From the IMG/VR virus record IMGVR_UViG_3300027971_000001: a DNA stretch of 64,000 bases. One strand, given 5' to 3'. A program made the position numbers and the translations under genes. Position 1 is the stretch's first letter. Each line of letters opens with the position of its first letter. The stretch is from a virus. Lineage: Duplodnaviria > Caudoviricetes. Shown piece after piece: positions 951-51,144 of the stretch. Below the pieces are notes generated by a model that was not told the origin of the DNA, did no database searches, and worked only from the letters and a program-made list of their open reading frames with translations.

Positions 951-2711
951 TTAATTGCATATTATACTGATTATAAATGCGCCGTCTCCTACTCCTTGCA
1001 TATCTGAACCAGCTTTAATTGTAATAATATTACATTCAGTCCGGAATAGCGGTATGGGGAAAGGAGTATCCCCTTGAATAACATTCAGAATTCCTAATTG
1101 TTGTAAATATAATTTATATAAACATCTGTTAATAGTGTCACTTTGATAATTTTCATTATTTCCTATAAAATTATTGCAATCAACATTTAAAGAAGGATCA
1201 GTCAAAACACCATCATCAATATAGATATTTTTTATAAATTTATAACTTTCATAAATATCCTGATTTGTCATCTGAATGTTTACGGCTGAAAGCGGCAAAT
1301 ATGGATCCAAATCAAATTTGAATCTCTGACGGGATTGATTCAAAAGAACATAATTATTGTTTATAAGTTTGCTTATGCTTTTGTTGAATGTAAGACTTTG
1401 TGAATATTCTTCATTTTTTATGTGTATTTGATCTTTTGAAAAAATATCAAAATCATAAGAATAAAGCATGTTATTGGTCGCATTAGGTTCAAGAAACCTG
1501 AAAAACTCGCCTGCCGAAAGGTTGGTTCCAATTGTTGTTTTTGAAAAAAGAAAAATGCTATCTCTATCTTCGTCCAAATACAAATCCAAAGCTTGCAAGC
1601 TATAATTTCGAATATTGTCTTTAGACAAATCAAATTTTCCAATCTTTGTTGTTGGACGGGAAAAATATTTTTTATAAAGAGATTTGTTTGTGAGAATATA
1701 AAAAATATTAGTATTATCTTTACTAAACAAATATTTTATTGAATATTCTCCGGTTTTTGTTTCTTCGGAAAAATCTACAACTTTGTATGAAGAATCAGAA
1801 ACATTTAGAATTATGATTTTATTTTCTTTGGCCAATAAAAATATATCGGTTATTCCTGTAAACTGATTTTTATGAAGTTTGATATCAACAATCGTATACA
1901 AAGAAAATAGATTTTTTAATATTAAAGAATATCTCCAATTCAATTGGTCGTCAAAAAACTTCAAACAAGAATTTCCGCTGTCCATTACAACTAGAGTTGA
2001 AAGATAAAGATCAGCAGCATAAGGTGTGTTGAATTCATTGTTGTCATATCGACCACCTTGACCACCTATGATTTTCTTCAAATATCGTTTATTGAATTTT
2101 ACATTTTCTCCTCCTATGAAACCTTCAACGTCATATAAAAGAACTTGGTTATTAACCGAATCTACCACGTAAAGATCATTTCCATTAAGAACCAAATCCG
2201 TTATGTTTCCATTTTTTAACTGTGTTTTTTCATCTATATAAATGCTTGAAAGAATAATATTAAATGAAGAATATTCTGTATCAAATTTTGTAAAAAATAA
2301 AGTTTGACCTTGAGATGCAATCAAAACAATGTTTTGACCATCTGTTGTTGGGGAAACAACAAAATCCTTAATATCATCTAATCCAGATAATCCTATTCCT
2401 GTTTGAAAGTTTCTGGCACTAGTATTTGGAACGGAAGTGGAATTCCATGTGGCTTTGGTTTTTCCTGAAATAACACCTAACCAAGATGTGTATGAATATG
2501 GAATTTGATTTGTTAAAATTTTTGTTCGAGAGTACAGATACAAAAGATTTTCATACAAATAATTAAAACGGATATTAATAGCCCCTGCAACGCTAAGTTC
2601 ATTGACAGGTATTTGAATTTTATCAAATACATACGGAAGAGAAATAAAATCTCCTACAACCCGATCAAAAATAAGATTTTCTTTTTGGAAAGATGAGTTT
2701 ATGGCTATCAT
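951..2711 (-). CDS. Putative baseplate/fibre protein with NHL-type beta-propeller
   Basis: NHL-like motifs (DLVLNGNDLYVVDSVNNQV; EFNTPYAADLYLSTLVVMDSGNSCLKFFD). Start placed at ATG 2711, which forms an ATGA overlap with the upstream stop. Confidence 0.6.
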   Translation of the reverse strand: MIAINSSFQKENLIFDRVVGDFISLPYVFDKIQIPVNELSVAGAINIRFNYLYENLLYLYSRTKILTNQIPYSYTSWLGVISGKTKATWNSTSVPNTSARNFQTGIGLSGLDDIKDFVVSPTTDGQNIVLIASQGQTLFFTKFDTEYSSFNIILSSIYIDEKTQLKNGNITDLVLNGNDLYVVDSVNNQVLLYDVEGFIGGENVKFNKRYLKKIIGGQGGRYDNNEFNTPYAADLYLSTLVVMDSGNSCLKFFDDQLNWRYSLILKNLFSLYTIVDIKLHKNQFTGITDIFLLAKENKIIILNVSDSSYKVVDFSEETKTGEYSIKYLFSKDNTNIFYILTNKSLYKKYFSRPTTKIGKFDLSKDNIRNYSLQALDLYLDEDRDSIFLFSKTTIGTNLSAGEFFRFLEPNATNNMLYSYDFDIFSKDQIHIKNEEYSQSLTFNKSISKLINNNYVLLNQSRQRFKFDLDPYLPLSAVNIQMTNQDIYESYKFIKNIYIDDGVLTDPSLNVDCNNFIGNNENYQSDTINRCLYKLYLQQLGILNVIQGDTPFPIPLFRTECNIITIKAGSDMQGVGDGAFIISIICN

Positions 2712-5700
2712 ATGTTTTCTCTCCAAACAATATTTTTAATTTGCGTCAAATAAGGAAAATTATTTAATATAATACTATTCAATTGTTTCTGTATGTATGC
2801 TTTTGCATTAGGATCTGTTATTTTTGAATTATTTATAGAAATATCAACAGCAGGAGACTTGTGGTAAGGAATCCTTTGTCTAAAAAATTTCTCAATTGTA
2901 TCTGTATAATTTCTATTTTCTGCCGGAAGATTCAACATTAAAGGTTGAATATTTTTGGAATATTTCTGAAGAAGGCGTATGGAATAATAATCTAAAGCTT
3001 TTGTAAAGAAAAATACATCCTTTATTTCAAGATTTTTTATTGTGAAAGCGTCACTTATTTTTAATTTCTCATATAAATTAATTCCAGCAAAATATTGTGT
3101 TGCTCCATAAGTGAATGGTTCACTTATGATTTGGCTTAAAGCATACTTTCCTTGATCAAAAGTTTTTGAATCAACAATTTGTCCGTCTACAAACAAAATA
3201 CAATTACCGTTAACAGAATCCAAAGTAAGAGCGAATTCATGATTTCCAAATTTTAGCTGGGAAGCATCAAATTTAAGATTCAATTCTTCCGGATTTTCAG
3301 AAGGATAAATGTTGGGAAGATTAATACGAACCGAAATTGTGTTTTTAGGATAATTCACATCTAAAATTTCATGATTGTAAAGAGAATTTGTGATAGGAGA
3401 TAACAAACATCCAGACAAAGCATAATTAAATGCTATAGGATTTTCATTAACTTGAAATGTTTTTGTATTAATTGAAGCTATCGTGTTTGTGGAAGAACAA
3501 ACGGCATAAATTGTTGTTGTATTTTCTCCTTTGATATATGATGACCCAAAATCACTAGCAACTACATTTTGTGCACTTGAAGGTAAACTGAAGGTTGTAA
3601 TGACAAATCCACCTGAATTGTGTACATAACATGTGGATTTATTATCAAAAATAAAGAAATTTTGATTATCATCTATTGTAAATGTCATAATATTTCCACT
3701 TGTGTTATAAAAACGTGTTTCAATATTATTAGTGCTTACATTCCATTCGAGAATTTCACCGTTTGATTTATAAAAAATTCTTACACCTTCACGAATCTCT
3801 GCATCAGTTCCATCTATAATATAGACTCCAGAACCTATCCGCTTTATGGATTGTGCGCTTACCATTGGAGTTGTTGAATAAAAACGAGTAAAATTGTTGT
3901 AACCTAATTCTTCAGTTCTTCGATTATATGAAACAAAATCTCCTTTAGGTGAAACAAGGAAAAATGTATATGTTTCATCAGAGAAATTGGAAATTGTAGA
4001 TGATAAAGGATTATATTGGGTGCTATCAAAAATTGTATTTTGTGAGTTTATTTGAAACAATTCACCAGTTTTATCCAACACAAAATAATCATCCAAACTT
4101 TCCAATTGAACAATATTAATTAGTGGATTATTAAATGTAATACTATCAATAAAACCAAATTCTTGATTGTAAATATACAATTTATTATCACTTATGATTC
4201 TAATAAATGGTGTAACGGATCTATCCGAATAAATTCCAAAACCTCTGTTTTTATAATTACCTATAATTTCATGGCCAAAAGGATTGTCGAAACTTTTGCT
4301 TGCTAAAGTAAACAAGAACGAAAAGCAATTATCAAATGATTTGCTATTAATCGTTTCATTAATTCCGTATTGACTTCCTGAAAATTTGTACACTCCATTT
4401 TCAGAAGCCAAAATAGTTCCATTTGTTTGTAAATATTGATCAATACCATTGAATAAAATGCTAGAATTATTTTTGTTTATGTATTCATCAATATCGTTTT
4501 TACCTATTCGGTAATAAGCATAAAGACAATATGGTTCAAAAGTCATTTGACTTTTTATATCAAAAATTTCCGTGGGTGTTGTTGCTTCGTTTGTTATACA
4601 ATCGTAATAGCTTTCATAACTGAAAACATCATTTGCTGAAAAAGCTGTTTGTCTGGTTGTTTTGTTAGGGAGAAAATATCTGTCATACCAAATTGGTCTT
4701 GTGGTAGGATCACAAGAACCGCTCAACCAAGAACAAAGCCACGTTCCATTAACTTCTCCGCGAGGATTTCCAAAGTTTGAAGTATCTTTGTAGTTTGAAA
4801 GTTTTTTCCATATTTTATCGGAGAACTCAGGTGTATCTGAATAAATTGCTCCGGATTCAGCTAATGATGAATCGTTTATATTAATAAAATTATATTCACC
4901 CATGTCTAAAGGGGTATGGAAATAACTTATTTTTCCAGGGGCAAACAGATATTCATTTATTTTACTCAAATAATTTTGAGAAAATTTTAAATTTCCTTTT
5001 TCTTGAAATGATCCAGTATTTAAAGAAACATAATTTCGCACTTGCTTATTTTCCGATACAAAAACATTTTCTGATTTTGGAGTAAGAGGATTTTTTTCTG
5101 TAAAGAAATTGTATGGTATTTCTGCAGAAGTTATGTTATTGAATTCAGAATGAAAAACAATTTGATTTTTAGTATTTTCGGATTTTGAACAATCAACATT
5201 AAGATTGTTTGTATCAAATTCTTTTGTGTATGAATACCAAAAAGAGGATAATGTAGAAATCAAATTAAATTTTATTGGAAGAATATTAAAAGTATTATCT
5301 ACTGTAAACTGAATATCACTTCCGCTAAGAGGTAAAAAAGTAAGAGATGATGATGATCGTGTTAATGTATAGACATTATTATTTTTTCTGTAAAAAAATG
5401 TTATACAGTTATTAATGTTATCAAAAATATATTCAAAAGCCTGTTGATAGAGACTGTTTGAATTGAATATGTCACTTGAGCCAGAAAGAAGATAAACATT
5501 ATTGTTTAAAAAGTTTAAATTTAGATAATATTTATTATTATAATATTCATGAGAAATTCTGCACAAATTGTTGGGAAGAAAATCTATTTCAAAATAGTAA
5601 TTAGGATTTTTTCCTCCAAAAAAATTATTTGTGGTAATATCCAAATAATTTGATGAAACTGTAGGATTGATAGACCAATATCTTTGAGATGATTCTTTTA

Positions 5701-5980
5701 TTGCATCTATACCGTTGCTTATGTATGTTACAAACCCATTTCCTTTTTGTGCTGGATTCATCAAAGAAAATGATTCTTCAAATTTAATTGAAGATGTCAA
5801 AACCATATTGGAATAATTGTTATTTTTTTGATCGTATGATTTTGAAAAAAATTCAGGAAAAGCAAAATTCATGCATGAATCACTGAAGATCTTTTGTTGA
5901 ACTGTGTCCAAATCCCTGTCTTGAACATAGGAAACTCCCATGTTCGACCAATTATTTTTATCAAAAACTCTGACAGGCAT
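2708..5980 (-). CDS. Large putative baseplate/fibre protein with central propeller-like region and C-terminal LamG/concanavalin-like domain
   Basis: About 1090 aa. C-terminal HEFALTLDSVNGNCILFVDGQIVDS...FTYGA resembles LamG. Start reassigned to ATG 5980 (MPVRVF), 6 nt after TAAATA and clear of the upstream gene. Confidence 0.55.
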   Translation of the reverse strand: MPVRVFDKNNWSNMGVSYVQDRDLDTVQQKIFSDSCMNFAFPEFFSKSYDQKNNNYSNMVLTSSIKFEESFSLMNPAQKGNGFVTYISNGIDAIKESSQRYWSINPTVSSNYLDITTNNFFGGKNPNYYFEIDFLPNNLCRISHEYYNNKYYLNLNFLNNNVYLLSGSSDIFNSNSLYQQAFEYIFDNINNCITFFYRKNNNVYTLTRSSSSLTFLPLSGSDIQFTVDNTFNILPIKFNLISTLSSFWYSYTKEFDTNNLNVDCSKSENTKNQIVFHSEFNNITSAEIPYNFFTEKNPLTPKSENVFVSENKQVRNYVSLNTGSFQEKGNLKFSQNYLSKINEYLFAPGKISYFHTPLDMGEYNFININDSSLAESGAIYSDTPEFSDKIWKKLSNYKDTSNFGNPRGEVNGTWLCSWLSGSCDPTTRPIWYDRYFLPNKTTRQTAFSANDVFSYESYYDCITNEATTPTEIFDIKSQMTFEPYCLYAYYRIGKNDIDEYINKNNSSILFNGIDQYLQTNGTILASENGVYKFSGSQYGINETINSKSFDNCFSFLFTLASKSFDNPFGHEIIGNYKNRGFGIYSDRSVTPFIRIISDNKLYIYNQEFGFIDSITFNNPLINIVQLESLDDYFVLDKTGELFQINSQNTIFDSTQYNPLSSTISNFSDETYTFFLVSPKGDFVSYNRRTEELGYNNFTRFYSTTPMVSAQSIKRIGSGVYIIDGTDAEIREGVRIFYKSNGEILEWNVSTNNIETRFYNTSGNIMTFTIDDNQNFFIFDNKSTCYVHNSGGFVITTFSLPSSAQNVVASDFGSSYIKGENTTTIYAVCSSTNTIASINTKTFQVNENPIAFNYALSGCLLSPITNSLYNHEILDVNYPKNTISVRINLPNIYPSENPEELNLKFDASQLKFGNHEFALTLDSVNGNCILFVDGQIVDSKTFDQGKYALSQIISEPFTYGATQYFAGINLYEKLKISDAFTIKNLEIKDVFFFTKALDYYSIRLLQKYSKNIQPLMLNLPAENRNYTDTIEKFFRQRIPYHKSPAVDISINNSKITDPNAKAYIQKQLNSIILNNFPYLTQIKNIVWRENI

Positions 5981-5991
5981 AAAATTATTTA

Positions 5992-6876
5992 TTAATATAT
6001 CGGGGCAACACAACTAATTGGAACCAAATAAGTTGAGTTGAATACATCAACTCCTATCATTATATCATTGTTTACAATTGTTATAAGGGCACAATATGCG
6101 GTTAATGGAGGTATATTTGGATATATTGGCTGAGTTGTTAAAGCAGGAACAATTGTAATTGCAAATTGAAGAGGTGGAAGTTCGGGGCGCACAATAACAG
6201 GAGGAATAAACAAATAATCACCTGTTCCCAAAACACCATAATTAATATCCAAAAGTTGTGAACCTTGCAAAGTTAGTAGATAATTTCTGTTATCATCCAA
6301 TAACTGATAATTCAAAATTTTATAATCTAAAATAGGATTGATTATGCTGGGTTGTGTTGCACTTAAATGAACAACAAATACATCCACATAAAAGTTTTCC
6401 CGATAACAGCTGATTATTGCTGTATGGGCAGTGATGAAATCTTCCCCGGTTTCATAAATTCCTGTAATCGAATCTAGTGTAGTAGAACTAGGATTTGTTA
6501 AATCTATGAATTTTTCAACATATTGATTGTTAATATCCGCTGTTATTTTTTGTATTTTATATAATGTTTGATCTACACCAGATAACGAAAATGTTATTTG
6601 AACAGGTGCTGTGAACAAAAATTCATCCTGTTCGTATCTGTGTATCACAATATTTTCAGATGCCGAAAATGTTGAAGTGTTTGTATAAGCAGATAATGGT
6701 AATGCAGAAAGCGATGGAAGTGCACTCAATGAACGGAAAGTTCCAGAACAAAGAACATTAGTATATGTAAAATTATATCCAAATATCGGATCACGATAAA
6801 CATAACCGTCAATTGTGCCGTAACTGACAAAATTTTCTCCCGCCGTCAAATAAATTGTTCCTGTGTTATATTTCAT
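5992..6876 (-). CDS. Hypothetical virion structural protein, Ser/Thr-rich, with Pro-rich linker and Cys-bracketed C-terminal module
   Basis: 294-aa ORF tightly packed in the structural operon; SLSALPSLSALPLSA repeat; C-x26-C tail. Confidence 0.5.
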   Translation of the reverse strand: MKYNTGTIYLTAGENFVSYGTIDGYVYRDPIFGYNFTYTNVLCSGTFRSLSALPSLSALPLSAYTNTSTFSASENIVIHRYEQDEFLFTAPVQITFSLSGVDQTLYKIQKITADINNQYVEKFIDLTNPSSTTLDSITGIYETGEDFITAHTAIISCYRENFYVDVFVVHLSATQPSIINPILDYKILNYQLLDDNRNYLLTLQGSQLLDINYGVLGTGDYLFIPPVIVRPELPPLQFAITIVPALTTQPIYPNIPPLTAYCALITIVNNDIMIGVDVFNSTYLVPISCVAPIY

Positions 6877-6877
6877 T

Positions 6878-8797
6878 TTATATTCCTGTTAATGGACATA
6901 CCAAAGGACTTAAGATATCCAAACCATTGATTGAATATAATGGTATGCTGCTATCTACAATTTCTACTAATGCACAATATGAACTCAAAGGAACAACCGG
7001 AGGTTTCGGACATTGGATTGTCAAAACATATCCACTTAAATCTATTTTCTTCAAGAAAGAAACTGGCAATGGATTCAACAATTGTATGACACAAGGAGGA
7101 ACAACAGGTGCAGGAACATATGCAGGATCGCAATTTAAATTATAAACAGATATTCCATTTGTTGATCGTGCAGCCAGAATTTTACCTTTAATATCCATGT
7201 TAGATCCCAAACGAACATTAGGAGTTAGTGATATGGGTGGATATGTTTTTAACAATAATAAAGATTCATTAGATTCTGAATAGTCATAAATATCGATTAA
7301 TCCAGCATTTGAATTGAGCGAAACTGTATTTCCAGGACGGCTAATGCCTAATGTTGTGTCACTGATTGAAATGGCAGAACCATATTTTGCATCAGGATTA
7401 TCTCCTGCAGAAAGCTGAATGGAATATGACCATACGTTTGTGGTTTGATTTTTTGTAAAAACAAAAACAGCACCGTCAGAACTATATAAACAACCTTTAT
7501 AAGGGGCACTTATTGCGGCAAAATAATCACCCATTGCGATTGAATAACCAAATCCTTCAGAAGAATTTGATATGCCGGAAAGATAAAACACACTGCTATA
7601 ATTTCCTAAACCATCTTTTTCAAATATTTGTGCAGATCCATCGATATAAGATATGATACCTTGATTGTTTTTAAATTTAATATTTGTTGGAATTGAAGAA
7701 AGGGTTGTAATTGATGAATAGTAATTCCAATCGTAGTTGTTTCTTTTGTATATTTCTACAGATGAAAGAGTGGAAAGAAATACATAGTCATTGTCTATGC
7801 TTCCATGAAATCCAAATCCAGAAACATTATTTGAATATACAGTATATTCTTTTACAACATTTCTTCCTAAATTTCTATAAATGTCAATAGAATTATTGAG
7901 TGTGTTTCTTACAAGCAATTTATCATTTGAATTATCCAGGAAGTTTTCAATAATTGAAGCATCATAATTTATTGTTTGACGCTCATCATAAGGAGCGGTG
8001 CTTGAAGTGGTAAGAATATAATCATTAAAAGACTTGTTTCCTGATTTTTCAGAAAATAAATTATTAGAACCTAAAAACAATTTTGAAGTTTGACCAACAC
8101 TAAACACATTTGTTCGTATAAATTGCAAACAGGTGGATAAGGTTGCATCTAAAATATTGTCCACATTCTGTTCAAATCCGTAGCAATCAAATTCTTTAAT
8201 TTTAAAAACTGTTGTATCATCCGGAGAAATAAAATTACAGGCTATTCGATATGAAGTTTGTTTTCTTTTATCCAGATAGGTTTGAGCCAATGTTACAAAA
8301 TTATCTGGGGAAATCATTTTTTGAACTTTAACCAAACGGCCATGTTCTGTTAAAACAACACGAATTGTTGTATAAATTGCATTATTTTCAGTTGTATAAT
8401 TTTGACCCAATACAATATTGGAGAATGATGAAAGATTTTCAGTATAAGTTAAAAGAGGATAGTCATCAAATTCTGGACCCCTAATAGCTATTGTATTTGG
8501 ATTGTTTTTATAATCACCATCATTTCTTCCGTCACCTTTTTTGGAAAATTCTCCTGTAACGTCTAATCCAATACCTATATATGCACCTTTTAAACCCTCA
8601 TATCCTGTATATGGCGAATAACCTAATGATCCATTTATTCCCCCTCCATATGGTGAAGACAAAGAATCTTCATAAAATGCAATCGATATTCCTCCTGAAC
8701 AGGACGATACTGGATTAAAAATAGAAAAGGTCAACGATGTCGCAATATCATGGCGACTATCGAATGATTTTTCGTTATATATCCTATTGAATTGCAT
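6878..8797 (-). CDS. Putative receptor-binding protein: N-terminal legume (L-type) lectin domain plus FG-GAP-like beta-propeller
   Basis: GGISIAF...GGGINGSLGY...GAYIGIGLDVTGEF matches the L-lectin pattern; FGYSIAMGDYFAAISAP...GAVFVF and YGSAISISDTTLGISRPG...AGLIDIY are FG-GAP-like repeats. Confidence 0.65.
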   Translation of the reverse strand: MQFNRIYNEKSFDSRHDIATSLTFSIFNPVSSCSGGISIAFYEDSLSSPYGGGINGSLGYSPYTGYEGLKGAYIGIGLDVTGEFSKKGDGRNDGDYKNNPNTIAIRGPEFDDYPLLTYTENLSSFSNIVLGQNYTTENNAIYTTIRVVLTEHGRLVKVQKMISPDNFVTLAQTYLDKRKQTSYRIACNFISPDDTTVFKIKEFDCYGFEQNVDNILDATLSTCLQFIRTNVFSVGQTSKLFLGSNNLFSEKSGNKSFNDYILTTSSTAPYDERQTINYDASIIENFLDNSNDKLLVRNTLNNSIDIYRNLGRNVVKEYTVYSNNVSGFGFHGSIDNDYVFLSTLSSVEIYKRNNYDWNYYSSITTLSSIPTNIKFKNNQGIISYIDGSAQIFEKDGLGNYSSVFYLSGISNSSEGFGYSIAMGDYFAAISAPYKGCLYSSDGAVFVFTKNQTTNVWSYSIQLSAGDNPDAKYGSAISISDTTLGISRPGNTVSLNSNAGLIDIYDYSESNESLLLLKTYPPISLTPNVRLGSNMDIKGKILAARSTNGISVYNLNCDPAYVPAPVVPPCVIQLLNPLPVSFLKKIDLSGYVLTIQCPKPPVVPLSSYCALVEIVDSSIPLYSINGLDILSPLVCPLTGI

Positions 8798-8826
8798 ATA
8801 AATTATTTAATTGTAAATTTCCTTTG

Positions 8827-40034: not shown

Positions 40035-40092
40035 TCGTTGTATTTTAACATTATTATTGAAATATCAAATCTTATGTTTAAATAAACGCATT

Positions 40093-43669: not shown

Positions 43670-45135
43670 AAATTTACGATTTATTCACTTTTAATAATGA
43701 ACTAGACCTGCTGGAAATCAGGTTAAATGAACTGAACGATGTTGTTGAGAGATTTGTTATTTGTGAAAGCACAGTCACTCATAGCAATCAACCCAAACCT
43801 CTTTATTTTTCAAATAACCGGGAAAGATTCAGAAAATTTTTACACAAAATAGATTTGGTTATTTTTGATAATGTAAAAAAGACTGATAGCTGGAGCATTG
43901 AAAATGATCATCGTAGGGCTTTGAGTGAGAAAATACCGTTTAATTTGAATGATGAGGATATTCTTTTGCTTTCTGATTTAGATGAAATACCCAGCAAAAA
44001 CATACTAGAACAATTAAAAACAAGGAATGAAAGTCAATTTCCTGTGACTCTTTGTTATAGCATGTATAGCGGGTCTTTTCATAATCGTGTCATTAGTCCG
44101 GAAAATCAGCTGCATAACGACAGCACAGTTGCAATAAAATACAGTCAATACAAAACAAACAACGATCTGCAACATTACAGAAACATTCGATCACAAAGTC
44201 TTCCGCGCATATATGATGCAGGCTGGCATTTTACCAGTATGGGTGGACCCAAAAATGTTTTGAAAAAAATACAAAGTTTTGCTCATAATGAATATCGTGA
44301 TTCTGGAATAGTTTTCACAGATGATGAAATCCAAGAAAACATAAAACAAGGCAAAGATATATTTGGACGGATGGGATACGTTATAGAAAAAGTTGAATTA
44401 AATGACACTTTTCCCAAATATGTATTGGAAAACAAGGATAAATTCAAAAACCTTATTGAAGGAAATGATGTCAAGGTTTCGTTGGAAACCAAACATTCAT
44501 ATTATCTTTTACAACACATGTTATATAGCATAAAAAATGCCGATTATCAAAGTTCCAAAATAGATGGTCAATATATTGATCTTAAAGTCGAAGGTATGAC
44601 CTGTTCTGCAACAAAACATCTGGCTAATAATCTTGCAAGTTTATATAAATGCAATTATCTGGAGGTTGGTGTTTATAAAGGTGCAACGTTTATTGCGGGA
44701 TTATGGAAGAATACTCCAAATCTTTATGTGGGCGTGGACAATTGGAGTGAATATGGTGGTCAGGATGAGTTTCTGCAAAAATTAAAAAATGCAAACAAAC
44801 CTAAGCCATCAGGAAGTCGTCGTATTGTTTTTGATCAAGACAGTTTTTCAGAAGGAATATTGGACCATTTAAATGAAAAATTTGATGTGTATTTTTATGA
44901 TGGTTGCCATTCAAGAGAAGCGCAAAAACTTGCTCTTACACATTATAAGAAATACATGAAAGAATATTTTATATATTATTGTGATGATTACTCTAACAGC
45001 ATGGACGTGGTGTTTGGTACCATGGAAGGAATAGCTGAATCAGGTTTTGAGATAATTTATGACAAAATTTTATTGCCACGAAGCAAAGATGCTTGGCGGA
45101 ATGGAATTTATGTTGCTTTGCTTAAGAACAATTAA
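43666..45135 (+). CDS. GT17-like (beta-1,4-GlcNAc transferase) domain fused to a class I SAM methyltransferase
   Basis: KIYDLFTFNNELDLLEIRL...FVICES..THS..PKPLYF, SDLDEIP and GWHFT are GT17 motifs; C-terminal YLEVGVYKGAT...FDVYFYDGCHS. Confidence 0.82.
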   Translation: MKIYDLFTFNNELDLLEIRLNELNDVVERFVICESTVTHSNQPKPLYFSNNRERFRKFLHKIDLVIFDNVKKTDSWSIENDHRRALSEKIPFNLNDEDILLLSDLDEIPSKNILEQLKTRNESQFPVTLCYSMYSGSFHNRVISPENQLHNDSTVAIKYSQYKTNNDLQHYRNIRSQSLPRIYDAGWHFTSMGGPKNVLKKIQSFAHNEYRDSGIVFTDDEIQENIKQGKDIFGRMGYVIEKVELNDTFPKYVLENKDKFKNLIEGNDVKVSLETKHSYYLLQHMLYSIKNADYQSSKIDGQYIDLKVEGMTCSATKHLANNLASLYKCNYLEVGVYKGATFIAGLWKNTPNLYVGVDNWSEYGGQDEFLQKLKNANKPKPSGSRRIVFDQDSFSEGILDHLNEKFDVYFYDGCHSREAQKLALTHYKKYMKEYFIYYCDDYSNSMDVVFGTMEGIAESGFEIIYDKILLPRSKDAWRNGIYVALLKNN

Positions 45136-45506: not shown

Positions 45507-45522
45507 ATAATATATTTATTCT

Positions 45523-46800
45523 TTATGCGTTGTTCAAAAGAGGACTAGTGCAAAGATTTATGTTAAAATTATTGTTAAATCCGGGGTTCATGACCAAACC
45601 ACTTCCTGCGTTAAGGGGTATAAAATATACTTTTCCATTAGGATGATTTATATAAAATCCATATGGTGAAGAACCCCCCACACTAGGAACCCTTAACGTT
45701 GTTATTGATAAATCATCTGGATCGATCCAAGCAATCAATGTTTGAGAACCAGATGATGTGAAAATTTTTCCATTAGCTAATTTTGTTGGATGTTGGCAAC
45801 CATTCAATCCTCCAGTTGAATAAGTGCTTATTGCATAATTATTATCGGGATCAACGACACCTAATACATTTCCAATAACTGGAACAAATATTATTTTACC
45901 ATTTTGTGCTTGTTCATATAAGGATGAACCAGCAAGTATTGACGTGTCGCTTATTCCATAACTGCTGACACTATCATCAGAAGGATCAACAACCCGCATC
46001 AAAGTTATTCCGTATCCTGGAATAGGAGAGCTAAATACTCTTCCATTTCGTAATGTAATTGCTCGAGCATATCCTCCTGTTGATGGCAATGAAATGCTAC
46101 TGATTGTGTCATTCGCGGGATTTATAACAAATATAAAATTATTAATATTTGTAGGGAAACAATATATTTTTCCGCTTGAACCTAATGCACCTCCTGCACA
46201 TTTGTCGGATCCTACAGGTCCTATTATGCTTGAGACTGTATTATTACTTGGATCCAATATTGCTACAGCTGTATTACCATCAGGAATACAATATATTTTA
46301 CCGTTAGGTGCCAACACACTTCCTTGATATTTCCCATTAGCATTTGCTTGAATAGGTCCAAACGTACCTATGGTATTATCTGAAGGATTTATAACATAAC
46401 CAACTGTAGCCGTATAAGGTGCAAGATATATTTTTCCATTCGGTGCAATTGTTCCACCAGTAAATGCACTCGTTCCTGGGAAACTTCCAGAACCATAAAT
46501 TTCAAATGTTGCGGCACTAATAGAAATATTTTTATTGCTTAATTGCAAACCTTTAATGTGTGAACTTATGCTTGAAAAATTGGTATATGATGCACCATTT
46601 GTCCAACCCGGAACTTGCATGTGTAAAAACTGATTAATCTGTTCAGCATTTCCTGTTCCGCTGCTGGTACGACCCAGAAACTGACTGTCCTGTAATTGCT
46701 GAATCTTATCGGTTGTGACGCTATTATTCGCCAATTTGACGGTGGGTACACCTAAATTGCGTCTCATCTTGGCAGCGGAAAGTGCGGGGGTTATTGGCAT
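45523..46800 (-). CDS. Putative receptor-binding protein, GGxLAPNGKIY beta-propeller, paralogue 1
   Basis: About seven 42-44-aa blade repeats, diverging toward the C-terminus; N- and C-terminal motifs shared with the two neighbours. Confidence 0.7.
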   Translation of the reverse strand: MPITPALSAAKMRRNLGVPTVKLANNSVTTDKIQQLQDSQFLGRTSSGTGNAEQINQFLHMQVPGWTNGASYTNFSSISSHIKGLQLSNKNISISAATFEIYGSGSFPGTSAFTGGTIAPNGKIYLAPYTATVGYVINPSDNTIGTFGPIQANANGKYQGSVLAPNGKIYCIPDGNTAVAILDPSNNTVSSIIGPVGSDKCAGGALGSSGKIYCFPTNINNFIFVINPANDTISSISLPSTGGYARAITLRNGRVFSSPIPGYGITLMRVVDPSDDSVSSYGISDTSILAGSSLYEQAQNGKIIFVPVIGNVLGVVDPDNNYAISTYSTGGLNGCQHPTKLANGKIFTSSGSQTLIAWIDPDDLSITTLRVPSVGGSSPYGFYINHPNGKVYFIPLNAGSGLVMNPGFNNNFNINLCTSPLLNNA

Positions 46801-46808
46801 AAAATTAT

Positions 46809-48107
46809 TTAACTTCTGTTATAGAAAGGACTAAGACAAAAATTTATATTAAAATTATTATTTACTTGAGGAATCAATGCCAATGCTTGTGATGCATTAT
46901 GAGGAATCAGATATATTTTTCCATTCGGAGCCTGTATACCTCCTATATAATCTGCATTTGTAGGTGTGGATCCTCCAGCAAATGATCCAAAAGTTAAAAT
47001 TGTATTATTTGACGGATCAATTACAGAAGCTAATGTTGCGTAATAAGGTACACAGAGTATTTTGCCATTAGACATTAAAGTTCCACCACCAAACTTAAGA
47101 GTACCGCCACTCGCTGAAAAATTTCCAAATGTTGTTATTGTGTTATTATTCGGATCTATTAAAGTGCATATTGTGGTAGCTGAAGGAATAGTATATATTT
47201 TTCCGTTAGGTGCCAATACAGCTGCTCCATAACTGTCTGCTAAGTTTATAAAAGTTCCAAAACTAGAAACTGTATTATTACTTGGATCAATAATATATAC
47301 AACAGTTAAATTTCTAGGAATGCAATAAATTTTTCCATTAGGAGCCAAAACACCTGTTGCAAATTTATTTCCGGTAGCTGGTGCATTTCCAAATGTTGTT
47401 ACACTATTGTTTGATGGATCAATATAAGCAAACACGGTTGCATCATAAGGAATCATATATATTTTTCCGTTGGGTGCAACGACACCTGTAGCATAATTAT
47501 CTGATGCTGGCGCAGGAGGCAAAGTTCCAAAATTTGTTACAGTATTATTTGATGGATCTATTACAACTGCAATACTATTTCTTCCAGGAGTAAAATATAT
47601 TTTTCCGTTAGGAGCACATACACCACCACTATATTTATTTCCTCCTACAAATGCAGCAGGGAAAGAACCAAATGTAGTTGTTGTGTTATTATTTGGATTT
47701 ATAATGACACAAACATTTCCATCATAAGGAGCACAATATATATTTCCATTAGGAGCCAATACACCACCATTAAGAGATTGAGTACCAGAAAAACTACCAA
47801 AATATTCAAAATAAACTGCAGTGGCTGGACTTGTATTTGTATTTATAACCTGATTAATATATGCACTCAAACTGCTCCATGCTGTTGTTGCATTATAAGG
47901 TGCGCTCAGAGGACTGGTCAGACTAATATCCGGATAGCTTTGTGTAGGGGTTACGTTTCCATTTCCAGTTTGCAGATTATTCCGGCCTATAAATTCTCCT
48001 TGCCCTATTTGAAAAATTTTGTCGGTGCTAAAAGAATTATCCGCGAGTTTACGGGTTTCTATTCCGTTATCTCGTGCCATTTTTGCCAGATCTGTTGCGT
48101 TGCTCAT
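46809..48107 (-). CDS. Putative receptor-binding protein, GGxLAPNGKIY beta-propeller, paralogue 2
   Basis: Seven blade repeats (GGVLAPNGNIY, GGVCAPNGKIY, GVVAPNGKIY, etc.). Confidence 0.7.
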   Translation of the reverse strand: MSNATDLAKMARDNGIETRKLADNSFSTDKIFQIGQGEFIGRNNLQTGNGNVTPTQSYPDISLTSPLSAPYNATTAWSSLSAYINQVINTNTSPATAVYFEYFGSFSGTQSLNGGVLAPNGNIYCAPYDGNVCVIINPNNNTTTTFGSFPAAFVGGNKYSGGVCAPNGKIYFTPGRNSIAVVIDPSNNTVTNFGTLPPAPASDNYATGVVAPNGKIYMIPYDATVFAYIDPSNNSVTTFGNAPATGNKFATGVLAPNGKIYCIPRNLTVVYIIDPSNNTVSSFGTFINLADSYGAAVLAPNGKIYTIPSATTICTLIDPNNNTITTFGNFSASGGTLKFGGGTLMSNGKILCVPYYATLASVIDPSNNTILTFGSFAGGSTPTNADYIGGIQAPNGKIYLIPHNASQALALIPQVNNNFNINFCLSPFYNRS

Positions 48108-48115
48108 GATTTTAT

Positions 48116-49360
48116 TTAATATTTGTTAAACATTGGATTAGTACAAACATTTATGTTGAAATTATTGTTAAGAAGCAAGCATAATGCCCTACCCACTGTT
48201 GCACTGGATGGAATAAAATATATCTTTCCATTAGGATCCAACACACCTCCAACATAAGCAGCACTTCCTGGAAAACTACCATATGTGGTTACGGTATTAT
48301 TCGATGGATCAACAAATCTACCCACTGTTGCATTGGTTGGAACAAAATATATTTTTCCATTGGGAGCAAGTACGCCTCCTTCATGACCACCTCCTGGAAA
48401 ACTTCCATATGTGGTTACGGTATTATTCGATGGATCAACAATAACACCCACTGTTGCACTGGTTGGAACAAAATATAGTTGTCCGTTAGGAGCCAACACA
48501 CCTCCAACATAAGCAGCACTTCCTGGAAAACTACCATATGTGGTTACGGTATTATTCGATGGATCAACAAATCTACCCACTGTTGCATTGTGTGGAACTA
48601 AATATATTTTTCCATTAGGAGCGAGTACTCCCCCTATATAAGCATCATTTCCTGGAAAACTGCCATATGTGGTTACGGTATTATTCGATGGATCCACAAA
48701 TCTACCCACTGTTGCAGCGCGTGGGAAAAAATATATTTTTCCATTTGGAGCAAGTGCACCTCCTTCATTAGAAAGAACCCCAGGAAAACTACCATATGTG
48801 GTTACAGTATTGTTAGCAGGATCAACAAATCTACCCACTGTTGCAACGCTTGAACAAAAATATATATTTCCATTAGGAGCTAGTACACCTCCAACATAAG
48901 CACCACCTCCTGGAAAACTACCATATGTGGTTACGGTATTGTTATTCGGATCGATAATAGCACCTACTGTTGCAGTGCGTGGAACTAGATATATCTTGCC
49001 GTTTGGAGCTATCACACCTCCTTCATAAACACCACTCCCCGGAAAACTGCCATACTGTTCAACATAACTCGCATTCGCCGGAACCAGACTATTTGTTTCG
49101 GCCACACTGCTCAGATAATATTGCAATGTACTCCAGTTGGTTATGTGTGCTCCTGTGGTCCAATCCGGTACCTGCACATCATACCAAGGTTGTACTTGTT
49201 GTGAGTTGCCAGTGCCTGCTGACATATTACGACCCAAAAATCGGTCACTAGCTACTTGTTGTATCTTGCTGGTTGCAGCTACGTTAGATGATAAAAAATC
49301 ACGGGTCACGCCCAGATCTCGGGCCATTTTTGCACCAGATAATGCAAGAGTAATAGGCAT
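48116..49360 (-). CDS. Putative receptor-binding protein, GGxLAPNGKIY beta-propeller, paralogue 3, with near-identical blades
   Basis: Seven 42-43-aa repeats that are conserved at DNA level. Confidence 0.72.
   Translation of the reverse strand: MPITLALSGAKMARDLGVTRDFLSSNVAATSKIQQVASDRFLGRNMSAGTGNSQQVQPWYDVQVPDWTTGAHITNWSTLQYYLSSVAETNSLVPANASYVEQYGSFPGSGVYEGGVIAPNGKIYLVPRTATVGAIIDPNNNTVTTYGSFPGGGAYVGGVLAPNGNIYFCSSVATVGRFVDPANNTVTTYGSFPGVLSNEGGALAPNGKIYFFPRAATVGRFVDPSNNTVTTYGSFPGNDAYIGGVLAPNGKIYLVPHNATVGRFVDPSNNTVTTYGSFPGSAAYVGGVLAPNGQLYFVPTSATVGVIVDPSNNTVTTYGSFPGGGHEGGVLAPNGKIYFVPTNATVGRFVDPSNNTVTTYGSFPGSAAYVGGVLDPNGKIYFIPSSATVGRALCLLLNNNFNINVCTNPMFNKY
48238..49050. repeat. Intragenic tandem repeat, about 7 units of 129 bp (one of 126 bp)
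   Basis: GGAAAACT anchor at 48270, 48396, 48525, 48654, 48783, 48912 and 49041; a 98-bp exact duplicate at 48238-48335 and 48493-48590. Confidence 0.92.
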
Positions 49361-49411
49361 ATAATTTATTTATTCAAAACCCGCTTCAGAAACACTGAAG
49401 GATTTTTATAA

Positions 49412-49768
49412 TTATTGACCAGGAGGTGTGGGCCAAACAACATCATCAGGAGAAGGAAATGCTTCTGTTATATCCCGGAGTTTTTGACGATATTCCGCCC
49501 ATGTCTGGCGATTTACAGGACTATCTGCACTTTGAGTCCAATCACTCTCTTGTAACAGACGATTCCTTTTTTCCCGTATTACAGCCCATTTAAAATTTGT
49601 TTCATCTTGCGATAACAAATTATAAATTTCCGAAGATGATGGACGTGCATCATTTAGCAACCATTTTGTTACAATATATTGGTTATTATAAGGCGACAAA
49701 ACAAGTTCATAATCCCCAGCTTTGATGTTGGGATATTTGCGTTGAAGGGCTAGAAGTATTTTGTCCAT
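49412..49768 (-). CDS. Tail fibre assembly chaperone
   Basis: IREKRNRLLQESDWTQSADSP...WAEYRQKLRDIT...WPTPP. Confidence 0.88.
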   Translation of the reverse strand: MDKILLALQRKYPNIKAGDYELVLSPYNNQYIVTKWLLNDARPSSSEIYNLLSQDETNFKWAVIREKRNRLLQESDWTQSADSPVNRQTWAEYRQKLRDITEAFPSPDDVVWPTPPGQ

Positions 49769-49773
49769 AAATT

Positions 49774-51144
49774 TTATAATTTAAATGCTGCAAATCTTAC
49801 ATTAAATGCTTGGCTGCTTTCACCACTATAAGCTTGTGCTTGATTCACCTGCATTTCAACATATTCTCCTACACCCAATCCTGTAAGGGCAGTTACACTC
49901 ATGTAAGCATCAATTCCGTTAACTGCAACTGTTGAAGAAGATTGAGCAACAGGAACTGCTGTTACTCCATTTTTGATAATTCTAAGATTTGAGGGATAAT
50001 ATGCCTGATTGTTTAATGTTGCTGCGTTAGCAACAATAAGATAATTACCTGCTTTTCCGGATGGTATGGTTATGCGTGAATTATTGGAAGCAGGATCATG
50101 ATATCCTGCACTATCAAAAAGATCTGCACCTGTGAGAGCTATGGTTGCGAATACTCCGGTTCCGTAACTTATATATTGATTGTTTTCACGTGTGGCAATA
50201 ACACCTTCTGAAACATAAGCAGCCAAGCTTGTGAGTGTGGCTACTGTTGTCTTTTTATTGTCTTTTGCAACCGAATCATAAATCATCACTTCATCGCCTG
50301 CTGCAGGTGATGCTTTAAGAGTACGCCCTTGAATATCTGCACTGAGTGTTACAACACCAAGACCACCTGTTGAACTGGTAGCAACACCATTTTGAGCAAC
50401 AATACGGCTCACTCCTGCAAAAGCACTCAAACCATAAACAGCGCCGGTACCAACTGAACTGAGTGTTTGCACATCCACCACGTCGCCTGTGGCAACTGGT
50501 TCATTCAATGTGATATTGAAACCATCGGTTGCTGTAAAATCGTAACTGTTTACAAGATGAGAACCGTTAAGATACACTGCAAGATTAGGTGCAGCATAAC
50601 GAAGAGATGAACCGAAATCATCATTTCCTGTTATCGTTGTTGCACCGTTTGCAATGGTTGTGGGAACTGTATAACGAAAATTTGATTGAATGATGGTACC
50701 AGAACCGGTTAATGTTTGATTGACTGATACACCAGTTGCACTAAGAGCAACAATTTCAACACTGTCCCCGACATTCAATGTGCTAAGATTTCTTACTTGT
50801 GTGCTGTTAGTGGCGAGAAAGTCTAAACCTTCAATAAGGTGAGCACCGTTCCGATAAACTTCAATTTGTCCAGGAGTGTATGTTAGTGTTAAACCAAAAT
50901 CATCTGCACCGCTGACTGCATTTACAGGACTTCCAGTTCCAATTGTATACCGATAACTTACACGGCGAACACTGCCCAAACTTCCACCCGGTGTGAATCC
51001 TTTGCTTATGAGAAGACCGCTTATAGCAACTGTTAAACTGTCCAGATCTGTACGAATTTCATCTAGTGCACGATAACCTACGACAAAGTCAGTTGCGGAT
51101 AGGACTGTTTGGGGGGTAAATTGAGTAAAATTTTTGAGTGCCAT
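49774..51144 (-). CDS. Tail fibre protein with two repeated ring-like domains and C-terminal C1q-like domain
   Basis: Duplicated DDFG...VY(R/L)NG.HL...DF.AT...GD.V unit; C-terminal FDSAGYHD...RITIPSGKAGNYLI...GEYVEM. Confidence 0.7.
   Translation of the reverse strand: MALKNFTQFTPQTVLSATDFVVGYRALDEIRTDLDSLTVAISGLLISKGFTPGGSLGSVRRVSYRYTIGTGSPVNAVSGADDFGLTLTYTPGQIEVYRNGAHLIEGLDFLATNSTQVRNLSTLNVGDSVEIVALSATGVSVNQTLTGSGTIIQSNFRYTVPTTIANGATTITGNDDFGSSLRYAAPNLAVYLNGSHLVNSYDFTATDGFNITLNEPVATGDVVDVQTLSSVGTGAVYGLSAFAGVSRIVAQNGVATSSTGGLGVVTLSADIQGRTLKASPAAGDEVMIYDSVAKDNKKTTVATLTSLAAYVSEGVIATRENNQYISYGTGVFATIALTGADLFDSAGYHDPASNNSRITIPSGKAGNYLIVANAATLNNQAYYPSNLRIIKNGVTAVPVAQSSSTVAVNGIDAYMSVTALTGLGVGEYVEMQVNQAQAYSGESSQAFNVRFAAFKL

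What the first reader, a model, noticed from the sequence alone, without database searches (positions are those of the whole stretch)
951..51144. LS[A/G/S] tripeptide enrichment in virion proteins: candidate sequon for a phage-encoded glycosylation system
Seen (hand counts, approximate): LS[A/G/S] occurs about 5 times in the first 175 aa of 5992 (SLSALPSLSALPLSA), 8 in 6878, 10 in 8827, 7 in 11606, 6 in 2708 and 5 in 49774, and also in the sheath and gp14. It occurs about 0 times in the roughly 1,700 aa of the four GT/MTase proteins, 0 in the AAA ATPase and clamp loader, and about 2 each in NrdA and terminase. The same window encodes a TPR-GT/GT2/GT17/methyltransferase operon next to the fibre genes. 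Known: bacterial O-glycosylation can use short Ser/Thr sequons, and some phages and giant viruses glycosylate their own virions. Inference: an undescribed phage O-glycosylation pathway that marks outer virion proteins at (L/x)-S-(A/G/S). No direct evidence of glycans exists in the sequence.
Basis: partly seen in the sequence, partly recalled or inferred. Interest (0 to 1): 0.8.

Follow-up and report, generated by a model that had tools for sequence, protein, structure and literature searches.

The report
Leu-Ser-small tag on phage tail proteins
The outer baseplate and fibre proteins of this uncultured freshwater T4-like phage and its many relatives carry the three-residue motif Leu-Ser-(Ala/Gly/Ser) about five times more often than chance, at conserved positions, which looks like a tag on serine (possibly for sugar attachment), but it is not tied to the sugar-transferase operon in this window.

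Summary
In seven unrelated proteins (window 312-15052, minus strand, 4904 aa) LS[AGS] occurs 42 times against 8.9 expected (z 11.6, 0 of 2000 shuffles). Only the full triplet is enriched; LS[other], LT[AGS], [IVFYM]S[AGS], non-L S[AGS] and the reversed motif are at expectation. Codons vary, so the signal is in the protein.

Serine and the small residue are under extra constraint in 69-85% identical relatives. The excess (2.4-6x) recurs in large ORFs around the tail module in nearly all of 73 related IMG/VR loci, mostly at conserved columns. It is absent from gp6, sheath and tube, from T4, and from a cultured cyanophage.

Two AlphaFold models place the sites in helices, strands and coils alike. 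The flanks differ and spacing is not periodic.

The link to the window's operon (TPR-GT9-like, GT2, MTase, GT17-MTase) fails. Two complete relatives lack the TPR-GT9 gene, one also lacks GT17 and GT9, and both keep the motif. All five near-complete relatives carry GT8, four above Pfam's cut-off and most beside radical-SAM genes.

Best reading (0.4): a serine tag read in trans, probably for O-glycosylation. Close rival (0.35): a lineage-specific structural motif.

This scan has noted similar tripeptide tags in other phages.

The parts
11606..15052 (-). 1148-aa protein in the gp7 position, next to the gp6-like gene. It has a PKD domain, and the homologue modelled here has an NHL/YVTN-type beta-propeller. 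7 LS[AGS] sites (2.3 expected).
   Evidence: Family of 50 distinct homologues: 506 sites against 88 expected (5.7x), with 16 conserved columns. AF2 model of the L078 homologue and Foldseek NHL hits.
8827..11601 (-). 924-aa protein with an N-terminal helical domain and a C-terminal propeller-like domain. 10 LS[AGS] sites (1.6 expected).
   Evidence: 585 homologues, all metagenomic; 142 of them give 737 against 200 expected. AF2 model has mean pLDDT 76. Foldseek gives propeller hits with low TM-scores.
6878..8797 (-). 639-aa distal tail protein. 8 sites (1.6 expected). Four of them (344, 366, 406, 462) end a recurring aromatic-Ser-x-x-x-x-LS[AGS] strand-like pattern.
   Evidence: no Pfam or PHROG match.
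5992..6876 (-). 294-aa protein. 5 sites (0.36 expected), including three within residues 50-63 in a short tandem Ser/Leu/Ala/Pro stretch.
2708..6013 (-). 1101-aa distal tail protein. 6 sites (1.4 expected).
   Evidence: family ratio 3.8x.
951..2726 (-). 591-aa distal tail protein. 4 sites (0.86 expected).
   Evidence: family ratio 3.8x.
312..935 (-). 207-aa protein at the end of the module. 2 sites (0.64 expected).
15061..16899 (-). gp6-like baseplate wedge protein, used as an internal negative control. 0 sites; family ratio 0.61x.
   Evidence: PHROG 219.
36039..36809 (+). 256-aa protein that a scan note calls the gp14-like neck protein. 3 sites (0.26 expected).
   Evidence: The identity comes from scan note e1-5338799 and was not tested here.
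40057..41607 (+). TPR array (residues about 16-213) plus a C-terminal GT9-like (heptosyltransferase-family) domain. 0 sites.
   Evidence: Pfam TPR; PDB TPR matches only in the N-terminal part; atlas neighbours and more than 6900 homologues, many carrying PF01075.
41604..42281 (+). GT2-family glycosyltransferase, 225 aa.
42269..43669 (+). 466-aa protein with a C-terminal Methyltransf_24-like region (weak, below Pfam's cut-off). The N-terminal part is unassigned.
43666..45135 (+). GT17 domain fused to a Methyltransf_24 domain, 489 aa.
   Evidence: 75% identical copy in relative G001.
45523..49360 (-). Three paralogous propeller-type fibre-tip proteins (425, 432 and 414 aa; 38-47% identical) with 1, 2 and 3 sites.
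49774..51144 (-). 456-aa Ala/Gly-rich fibre protein upstream of a tail-fibre chaperone gene. 5 sites (1.1 expected).

Best explanation
L-S-[A/G/S] is a short linear tag on serine that some factor reads in trans. It is carried by the outward-facing tail proteins (gp7-position protein, distal baseplate proteins, fibres, neck protein) of a whole uncultured clade of aquatic T4-like phages.

The most likely use is O-glycosylation of the serine in the host cytoplasm before or during tail assembly, by phage-encoded glycosyltransferases. The pocket of the initiating enzyme would demand Leu at -1 and a small residue at +1, often with Pro at -2 or -3 from the serine.

The enzyme set is more likely the glycosyltransferase genes shared across the clade (GT8, with GT32-like, GT31/Fringe-like and radical-SAM/SPASM partners in G006) than the window's own operon. 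That operon may add a lineage-specific elaboration or may act on something else.

Shown: the motif, its specificity, its selective constraint, its restriction to the clade and to one class of proteins, and its independence of fold. Inferred: that serine is modified, that the modification is a glycan, and which enzyme does it.
For: - Triplet-only enrichment of 4.8x, z about 11.6, with all partial and permuted motifs at expectation.
- Every Leu and Ser codon family is used at the sites, so selection acts on the protein.
- The seven proteins are not paralogues.
- In relatives 58-85% identical (mostly 69-85%), motif Ser is kept 88.7% of the time against 68.4% for other Ser (Fisher p 2.5e-8). When the third residue changes it stays in A/G/S 77.5% of the time, against 32% for other A/G/S positions (p 1e-8).
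- The excess holds across the clade: 3.7x in 142 distant homologues; 2.4-6x in ORFs of 500 aa or more in nearly all of 73 loci, while small ORFs are about 1x; family ratios 5.7x, 4.8x, 3.8x and 3.8x against 0.61x for gp6.
- Controls lack it: T4 gp6-12, wac and gp34-37 give 7 against 8.3; the cyanophage Sf-CH8 baseplate module gives 8 against about 10.9.
- The 26 sites in two AF2 models sit in coil, strand and helix in about the same proportions as all Ser. Conserved sites have unrelated flanks, and spacing is not periodic.
- Around the 732 sites in the 142 distant homologues of the 924-aa protein, charged residues are depleted and Pro, Ala and Ser are enriched at -1 and -2 from the Leu.
- GT8 matches occur in 5 of 5 near-complete relatives (4 above Pfam's cut-off) and in 0 of 2 motif-free controls. 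In G006 GT8, GT32-like, SPASM and GT31 genes follow the tail genes on the same strand.
- TPR-plus-glycosyltransferase enzymes are known to pick protein acceptors through the TPR domain (FlmG, PMC7591256; Maf-1, bioRxiv 10.1101/2023.12.03.569772).
Against: - There is no chemical evidence of any modification.
- Most of the excess sits at positions conserved down to about 30% identity. After removing them the residual is 1.0-1.7x. That pattern fits a structural role at least as well as a modification site.
- Several sites lie inside predicted strands or helices, and Leu is normally buried.
- In G006 two motif-rich proteins are RCC1 and BspA-type LRR repeat proteins in which LS[AGS] is part of the repeat unit.
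- The glycosyltransferase sets differ between relatives. The GT8 contrast amounts to one clade against two outgroups, so it is a single evolutionary comparison.
- G008 (77% complete) showed no GT2, GT1/4, GT9 or GT17.
- GT islands in aquatic myoviruses are usually read as modifying the host surface (PMC12801897).
Confidence: 0.4

Rival explanations
1. The motif is a lineage-specific structural building block. Leu packs into the core, Ser makes a side-chain-to-backbone hydrogen bond, and a small residue allows tight packing or a turn. The distal tail proteins of this clade reuse it wherever a loop meets a strand or a short helix. Nothing is attached to the serine.
For: - The sites are positionally conserved within each family at about 30% identity; 357 of 506 sites in the gp7-position family lie in 16 columns.
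- At conserved columns the substitutions are conservative: L to I, F, Y or V; S to T, N or D; third residue to T.
- Many sites sit at, or 2-5 residues before, the start of a strand or short helix, often after Pro.
- Four sites in the 639-aa protein end a recurring strand-like pattern.
- In the G006 RCC1 and LRR_5 proteins the triplet is part of the repeat unit.
- The proteins are rich in propellers.
Against: - The same triplet recurs in helix, strand and coil and in unrelated folds, with no shared flanks.
- Leu is strongly preferred over Ile and Val (3.7x against 1.6x), and Ser over Thr (3.7x against 1.3x).
- Beta-rich proteins of the same virion (gp6, sheath, tube, inner baseplate) lack it, as do T4 and a cyanophage with giant beta-rich baseplate proteins. 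A purely physical preference should not be specific to one clade and one class of proteins.
- It is not a helix N-cap: Pro, Glu and Asp are not enriched after LS, and Gly is the most enriched.
Confidence: 0.35
2. One reading: the window's operon (TPR-GT9-like, GT2, MTase, GT17-MTase; 40057-45135) is the enzyme system that recognises LS[AGS] and glycosylates the virion.
For: The operon is real and lies inside a fibre and chaperone cassette. The TPR plus GT-B-like architecture resembles the protein O-glycosyltransferases FlmG and Maf-1 (PMC7591256). The operon proteins themselves have no sites. It is conserved at 75-87% identity in the one close relative whose contig reaches that region.
Against: Complete relatives G005 and G006 and near-complete G007, G008 and G009 lack the TPR-GT9 gene. 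G006 also lacks GT17 and GT9. They still show the same excess. No operon gene occurs within 10 kb of the tail module in 73 related loci.
Confidence: 0.08
3. The triplet is read by something other than a glycosyltransferase. Candidates are an assembly chaperone or baseplate partner that docks on it, or another serine- or leucine-directed modification. One example is an enzyme from the radical-SAM/SPASM genes that accompany GT8 in these genomes.
For: The properties of a motif read in trans are the same as above. Radical-SAM genes occur in 4 of 5 near-complete relatives, six of them next to GT8 in G008. A SPASM enzyme sits in the G006 island. Two tail-fibre chaperone genes lie in the window.
Against: No known chaperone or rSAM enzyme uses such a motif. 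The motif has no Cys, and it lacks the Pro/Ala-x-Arg that follows the target residue in formylglycine-type sites. G009 has no radical-SAM match.
Confidence: 0.12
4. The excess is a chance or composition artefact: Ser- and Leu-rich low-complexity patches, a hidden DNA motif, paralogy, or post-hoc selection of the motif.
For: One protein has a short tandem stretch holding three sites.
Against: 0 of 2000 shuffles reach the count. The reversed and partial motifs are at expectation. The triplets rank at the top of an unbiased scan. Codons vary, and the proteins are not paralogues. The excess is replicated in nearly all of 73 independent loci and four protein families.
Confidence: 0.01

Closest known systems
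Virion glycosylation of mycobacteriophages by phage-encoded glycosyltransferases (Freeman et al. 2023, Cell Host Microbe; known to me from memory and from its citation in PMC12801897; the paper itself could not be opened)
   Same: The phage carries its own glycosyltransferase genes near structural genes. The proposed targets are virion proteins made in the host cytoplasm.
   Different: From memory: the hosts are actinobacteria, the phages are siphoviruses, and glycans are on capsid and tail-tube proteins, with no short sequon reported. Here the phage is T4-like, the targets are distal baseplate and fibre proteins, there is a strict three-residue motif, and there is no chemical evidence.
Short bacterial O-glycosylation sequons, e.g. 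Bacteroidota D-(S/T)-(A/I/L/V/M/T), and the OGT preference for Pro upstream and small residues after the acceptor (from my own knowledge)
   Same: A three-residue code centred on a hydroxyl residue, with a restricted residue immediately after it. It marks many unrelated proteins of one compartment.
   Different: The residues differ: Leu before, only Ser, only A/G/S after. The Bacteroidota system acts in the periplasm through an oligosaccharyltransferase. No GT41 domain is present here.
TPR-guided cytoplasmic protein O-glycosyltransferases FlmG (PMC7591256) and Maf-1 (bioRxiv 10.1101/2023.12.03.569772)
   Same: A TPR array is fused to a glycosyltransferase domain. In those enzymes the TPR selects the protein acceptor, and serines are the acceptors.
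   Different: Those enzymes act on flagellins with nonulosonic acids and have no reported linear sequon. The window's protein has a GT9-like domain of untested activity, and relatives that keep the motif do not need it.
Autotransporter heptosyltransferases (Aah/TibC), which glycosylate serines in repeat units of AIDA-I-type beta-helices (from my own knowledge)
   Same: Heptosyltransferase-family enzymes modify many serines of a large beta-rich surface protein in the cytoplasm. The ladder of LSA units in the G006 LRR protein is a formal parallel.
   Different: From memory, those enzymes are reported to recognise a structural motif, not a sequence. No heptose pathway was seen here, and membership was not tested.
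Repeat-fold consensus motifs (RCC1, BspA-type LRR_5, WD40 and NHL blades)
   Same: Hydrophobic-Ser-small triplets recur at strand ends and turns in such repeats. Two motif-rich G006 proteins belong to these families.
   Different: The window's proteins show no Pfam repeats apart from one PKD domain, no periodic spacing and no shared flanks.

Membership tests
Protein O-glycosylation sequon | A short motif centred on Ser/Thr that is statistically over-represented in the target proteins and absent from non-targets | tested here: met
   42 against 8.9 in the distal tail proteins; 6 against 5.5 in inner tail proteins; 0 in the GT operon proteins.
Protein O-glycosylation sequon | A glycan covalently attached to the motif's Ser | not testable with these tools
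   Needs mass spectrometry of virions or of co-expressed fragments.
Protein O-glycosylation sequon | A cognate glycosyltransferase that co-occurs with the motif across genomes | tested here: inconclusive
   The window's operon does not co-occur. GT8 matches occur in 5 of 5 motif-positive near-complete genomes (4 above cut-off) and 0 of 2 motif-free controls, but that is one clade against outgroups.
Protein O-glycosylation sequon | The acceptor residue is solvent-exposed on the folded protein or sits in a flexible segment | tested here: inconclusive
   Only secondary structure was returned for the two models. Sites fall in coil, strand and helix. No coordinates were available to compute accessibility.
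OGT (GT41) type TPR glycosyltransferase | TPR array fused to a GT41 catalytic domain | tested here: not met
   The TPR array is present, but PDB OGT matches cover only the TPR part. The C-terminal domain groups with PF01075 (GT9) proteins.
FlmG/Maf-1-like TPR-guided protein glycosyltransferase | TPR domain that binds the protein acceptor, plus a glycosyltransferase domain that is required and sufficient for modification | not testable with these tools
   The architecture is compatible. Binding and activity need experiments.
Phage-encoded virion glycosylation (mycobacteriophage type) | Glycosyltransferase genes in the phage genome next to structural genes | tested here: met
   Window operon inside the fibre cassette. 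G006 GT8/GT32/GT31 island directly after the tail genes on the same strand.
Tandem structural repeat (RCC1, LRR, WD40/NHL blade) consensus | The motif sits at the same place in a periodically repeated homologous unit | tested here: not met
   For the window's proteins and their families: no periodic spacing, flanks unrelated, no Pfam repeats. It is met only for two unrelated G006 proteins and possibly for four sites of the 639-aa protein.
N-glycosylation sequon N-x-S/T | N-x-S/T over-represented | tested here: not met
   76 against 83 expected.
Lipobox L-[AS]-[GA]-C | Cys directly after the triplet, near the N-terminus behind a signal peptide | tested here: not met
   Only 1 of 42 sites is followed by Cys, and the sites are internal.

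The most novel reading that the evidence does not exclude
A whole uncultured clade of aquatic T4-like phages coats its baseplate periphery and fibres with a glycan, or another group, attached to serine. The attachment is addressed by a strict three-residue code, L-S-[A/G/S], read by phage-encoded Golgi-type GT-A enzymes (GT8, GT32, GT31) and radical-SAM partners. This would be the first sequon-directed protein modification system described for tailed-phage tails. Lineage-specific add-on operons, such as the TPR-GT9/GT17-methyltransferase cassette in this window, would diversify the coat.
Probability: 0.3. Interest if true: 0.85.

Novelty: new variant of a known kind. Interest (0 to 1): 0.62.

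Why it matters
If the serine is modified, tail proteins of abundant freshwater and marine myoviruses carry a programmable coat at dozens of conserved sites per protein. That would affect host recognition, resistance to proteases and grazers, and how receptor-binding proteins are modelled from sequence.

It would also give a simple sequence rule for predicting modified phage proteins in metagenomes, and a handle on the many unexplained glycosyltransferase islands of aquatic phages.

If the motif is structural, it is still a compact and strongly selected building block. It marks one class of tail proteins and could help annotate proteins that currently match no family.

Tried and rejected
Explanations tested and rejected:
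- DNA-level motif or recoding. All Leu and Ser codon families are used at the sites.
- Regional composition or low complexity. The reversed and partial motifs are at expectation.
- Paralogy. BLAST all-against-all finds only a short C-terminal similarity between two of the proteins.
- Periodic repeats. No periodicity in site spacing over 269 proteins.
- N-x-S/T sequon. Not enriched.
- Classical helix N-cap. Pro, Glu and Asp are not enriched after LS, and Gly is the most enriched.
- Lipobox.
- A general property of T4-like tails. T4 and cyanophage Sf-CH8 are at expectation.
- The [S/T]-G-S and D-G-Y tags noted elsewhere in this scan. They are not enriched here except as LSGS.

Dead ends:
- No whole genome is held for the window.
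- INPHARED has no DNA match (a 6-kb stretch, 28000-34000, was tried) and no protein match for the 924-aa, 1148-aa or G006 GT8 proteins. No cultured model was found.
- The alignment of 77 homologues was too divergent for a locus scan.
- The ENA contig behind L016 cannot be searched.
- The homologues carry no source names.
- Model coordinates are not delivered to the script box, so solvent accessibility could not be computed.
- Freeman et al. 2023 is not held.
- A literature search found no report of sequons in phage tail proteins in the held library.


Full report
**What is in the window**

The window is part of an uncultured freshwater T4-like phage.
- It encodes a gp25-like protein, a gp6-like protein (PHROG 219), T4_baseplate-family proteins, a weak tube match, sheath and large terminase.
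- There is no nucleotide or protein match in 50,697 cultured phage records for a 6-kb stretch (28000-34000) or for the distal tail proteins.
- The gp6-like protein is only 26-29% identical to cultured T4-like phages.
- Downstream of gp6, on the minus strand, lie seven genes (11606-15052 down to 312-935). They have no Pfam or PHROG match apart from one PKD domain.
- A second fibre cassette lies at 45132-51144. It holds three paralogous propeller proteins, one Ala/Gly-rich fibre and two chaperones.
- It abuts a plus-strand four-gene operon at 40057-45135.

Yes. The hand counts are exact.
- In the seven proteins (4904 aa), LS[AGS] occurs 42 times against 8.8-8.9 expected from within-protein shuffles (z 11.5-11.8, 0 of 2000).
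- In an unbiased scan of all di- and tripeptides, LS is the top dipeptide. LSG, LSS, PLS and LSA are among the seven most over-represented tripeptides.
- Only the full triplet is enriched:

| Pattern | Observed | Expected |
|---|---|---|
| LS[^AGS] | 33 | 35 |
| [^L]S[AGS] | 93 | 96 |
| L[^S][AGS] | 78 | 74 |
| LT[AGS] | 8 | 6 |
| [IVFYM]S[AGS] | 31 | 28 |
| reversed [AGS]SL | 8 | 8.9 |
| PLS[AGS] | 9 | 0.34 |

- All Leu and Ser codon families are used at the sites, so this is not a DNA motif or a recoding artefact.
- The seven proteins are not paralogues.
- By class:

| Class | Observed | Expected |
|---|---|---|
| Four proteins of the second fibre cassette | 11 | 3.1 |
| Baseplate, tube and sheath block (13 proteins) | 6 | 5.5 |
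| Remaining 31 proteins | 17 | 8.7 |

- The excess therefore marks distal tail proteins and the neck protein at 36039-36809 (3 against 0.26), not virion proteins in general.

**Selection**

Orthologues were taken from four IMG/VR relatives that are 58-85% identical (mostly 69-85%).
- Motif Ser is conserved in 88.7% of comparisons, against 68.4% for other Ser (p 2.5e-8).
- Motif Leu is conserved in 88.7%, against 78.9% for other Leu.
- The third residue is no more often identical than other A/G/S positions (73.5% against 72.4%). When it changes, it stays within A/G/S 77.5% of the time, against 32% elsewhere (p 1e-8).
- The p-values ignore relatedness of the sequences, but the direction is clear. 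The unit under constraint is Leu, Ser, then a small residue.

**Breadth**

- The 924-aa protein has 585 homologues in a library of 1.8 billion representatives. The ten homologues looked up by exact sequence carry no informative source name, and the one contig examined is T4-like.
- In 142 of these homologues (about 30% identical): LS[AGS] 737 against 200 (3.7x), PLS[AGS] 9.9x, [IV]S[AGS] 1.6x, LT[AGS] 1.3x, reversed 1.1x.
- In nearly all of 73 related IMG/VR loci, ORFs of 500 aa or more around the homologue are enriched 2.4-6x (two loci are slightly lower). Smaller ORFs sit near 1x.
- By orthologous family:

| Family | Ratio to expectation |
|---|---|
| gp7-position protein (506 against 88) | 5.7x |
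| 924-aa protein | 4.8x |
| 1101-aa protein | 3.8x |
| 591-aa protein | 3.8x |
| gp6 (control) | 0.61x |

- Most of the excess sits in conserved columns. In the gp7-position family, 16 columns hold 357 sites. The residual after removing conserved columns is 1.0-1.7x.
- The flanks of the conserved sites are unrelated apart from frequent Pro at -1 or -2 and an aromatic residue after the triplet.
- Around the 732 sites of the 142 distant homologues of the 924-aa protein, charged residues are depleted and Pro, Ala and Ser are enriched just upstream.

**Controls outside the clade**

- T4 gp6-gp12, wac and gp34-gp37 (7057 aa): 7 against 8.3.
- The baseplate module of the cultured cyanophage Sf-CH8, including a 4878-aa gp7-like protein: 8 against about 10.9.
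- The excess is therefore specific to this clade and to one class of proteins. It is not a general feature of beta-rich tail proteins.

**Structure**

- The AF2 model of the 924-aa protein (77 sequences, mean pLDDT 76) has a helical N-terminal domain, a mixed middle region and a propeller-like C-terminal domain. Foldseek TM-scores for the propeller hits are low. Its ten sites fall at three helix starts, inside one helix, in three strands and in three coil stretches.
- The AF2 model of a gp7-position homologue with 16 sites (44 sequences, pLDDT 81) contains an NHL/YVTN-type propeller. Its sites fall in coil (5), strand (4) and mixed or helix-edge contexts (7). This is close to the distribution of all Ser in the model.
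- Site spacing over 269 large proteins is close to random.
- Four sites in the 639-aa protein do end a recurring strand-like pattern.
- In relative G006, two motif-rich proteins are an RCC1-repeat and a BspA-type LRR protein in which the triplet is part of the repeat unit.
- A structural use of the triplet is therefore certainly possible in some proteins.

**The glycosyltransferase question**

- 40057-41607: TPR array plus a C-terminal domain. The neighbours and thousands of homologues of that domain carry PF01075 (GT9, heptosyltransferase family).
- 41604-42281: GT2.
- 42269-43669: a protein with a weak Methyltransf_24 region.
- 43666-45135: GT17 fused to Methyltransf_24.

It is conserved at 75-87% identity in the one close relative whose contig reaches that region. 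It is not needed for the motif:
- G005 and G006 (100% complete), G007 (88%), G008 (77%) and G009 (74%) have no TPR-GT9 homologue.
- G006 also lacks GT17 and GT9. G008 showed no GT2, GT1/4, GT9 or GT17.
- Their tail proteins are nevertheless as enriched as the window's.
- None of the operon genes lies within 10 kb of the tail module in the 73 loci.

Other transferases are present in the clade:
- GT8 (PF01501) gives a match in all five near-complete relatives. Four are above Pfam's cut-off; the G009 match is weak. GT8 is absent from T4 and Sf-CH8.
- Radical-SAM genes are in four of the five, six of them beside GT8 in G008.
- In G006, a tightly packed same-strand run directly after the motif-rich tail genes encodes GT8, a GT32-like DXD protein, a radical-SAM/SPASM enzyme, a GT31/Fringe-like transferase and a PhyH dioxygenase.
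- A scan note describes a comparable GT8/radical-SAM/sulfotransferase cluster coupled to fibre genes elsewhere in the window's own genome. I could not read that region.
- This association is one clade against two outgroups, so it is a lead and not a test.

**Reading**

Several features are what a linear tag read in trans by an enzyme would look like:
- the triplet-only specificity, with Leu not Ile or Val, Ser not Thr, and any small residue third;
- the extra constraint on Ser;
- recurrence in unrelated folds and in all secondary-structure contexts;
- restriction to outward-facing proteins of one clade.

Glycosyltransferase islands coupled to tail genes make O-glycosylation the leading candidate. 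TPR-guided cytoplasmic serine glycosyltransferases are a known precedent (PMC7591256; bioRxiv 10.1101/2023.12.03.569772).

Against this stand the deep positional conservation, the presence of sites inside predicted strands and helices, the normally buried nature of Leu, and the clear structural use in two repeat proteins. These keep a lineage-specific structural motif nearly as likely.

My estimates are:
- 0.40: serine tag read in trans, with a glycan most likely;
- 0.35: structural motif;
- 0.12: another reader or another modification;
- 0.01: artefact.

This scan has noted comparable tripeptide excesses ([S/T]-G-S, D-G-Y, S-G) in tail proteins of other phage lineages. Here those motifs are not enriched except as LSGS.

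Noticed in passing
L097:6095-15308 (G006, contig positions 146095-155308): A tightly packed same-strand run directly after the tail genes of a complete 217-kb relative. It encodes GT8, a GT32-like DXD protein, a small radical-SAM/SPASM enzyme, a GT31/Fringe-like transferase and a PhyH dioxygenase, plus several unassigned proteins of about 250 aa.
   Followed up: partly
G008 contig positions 13676-21861 (relative of L071): Six radical-SAM matches within 7 kb, next to a GT8 gene, in a 162-kb relative. This relative showed no GT2, GT1/4, GT9 or GT17, and the large ORFs around its tail module are among the most motif-rich of the loci examined, at 4.7x.
   Followed up: no
L100:11127-13499 (-) and L098:6333-7946 (+) (G006): A 790-aa BspA-type LRR protein with the triplet LSA at the same place in about 11 repeats (16 sites against 3 expected). 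Also a 537-aa RCC1-repeat protein with LSA in each blade. Both are unusual cargo for a T4-like phage.
   Followed up: partly
window 8827-11601 (-): The 924-aa protein founds a family of at least 585 metagenomic homologues with a conserved N-terminal region of about 525 residues and variable C-termini up to 1800 aa. It has no member in cultured phages and no Pfam or PHROG model.
   Followed up: partly
window 11606-15052 (-) and L078:6447-9908: The protein in the gp7 position has an N-terminal PKD domain. The modelled homologue has an NHL/YVTN-type six-bladed propeller. No sequence match to cultured-phage gp7 was found.
   Followed up: partly
window 5992-6876 and 6878-8797 (-): The last 50-70 residues of these two otherwise unrelated proteins are 32-38% identical, which suggests a shared C-terminal module. 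A scan note describes a Cys-bracketed module there.
   Followed up: no
window 40057-41607 (+): The TPR plus GT9-like architecture belongs to a very large family (more than 6900 hits) spread over cyanobacteria, other bacteria and phages, with no assigned function.
   Followed up: partly
window 45523-49360 (-): Three tandem paralogues (38-47% identical) of a propeller-type fibre-tip protein lie between two tail-fibre chaperone genes.
   Followed up: no
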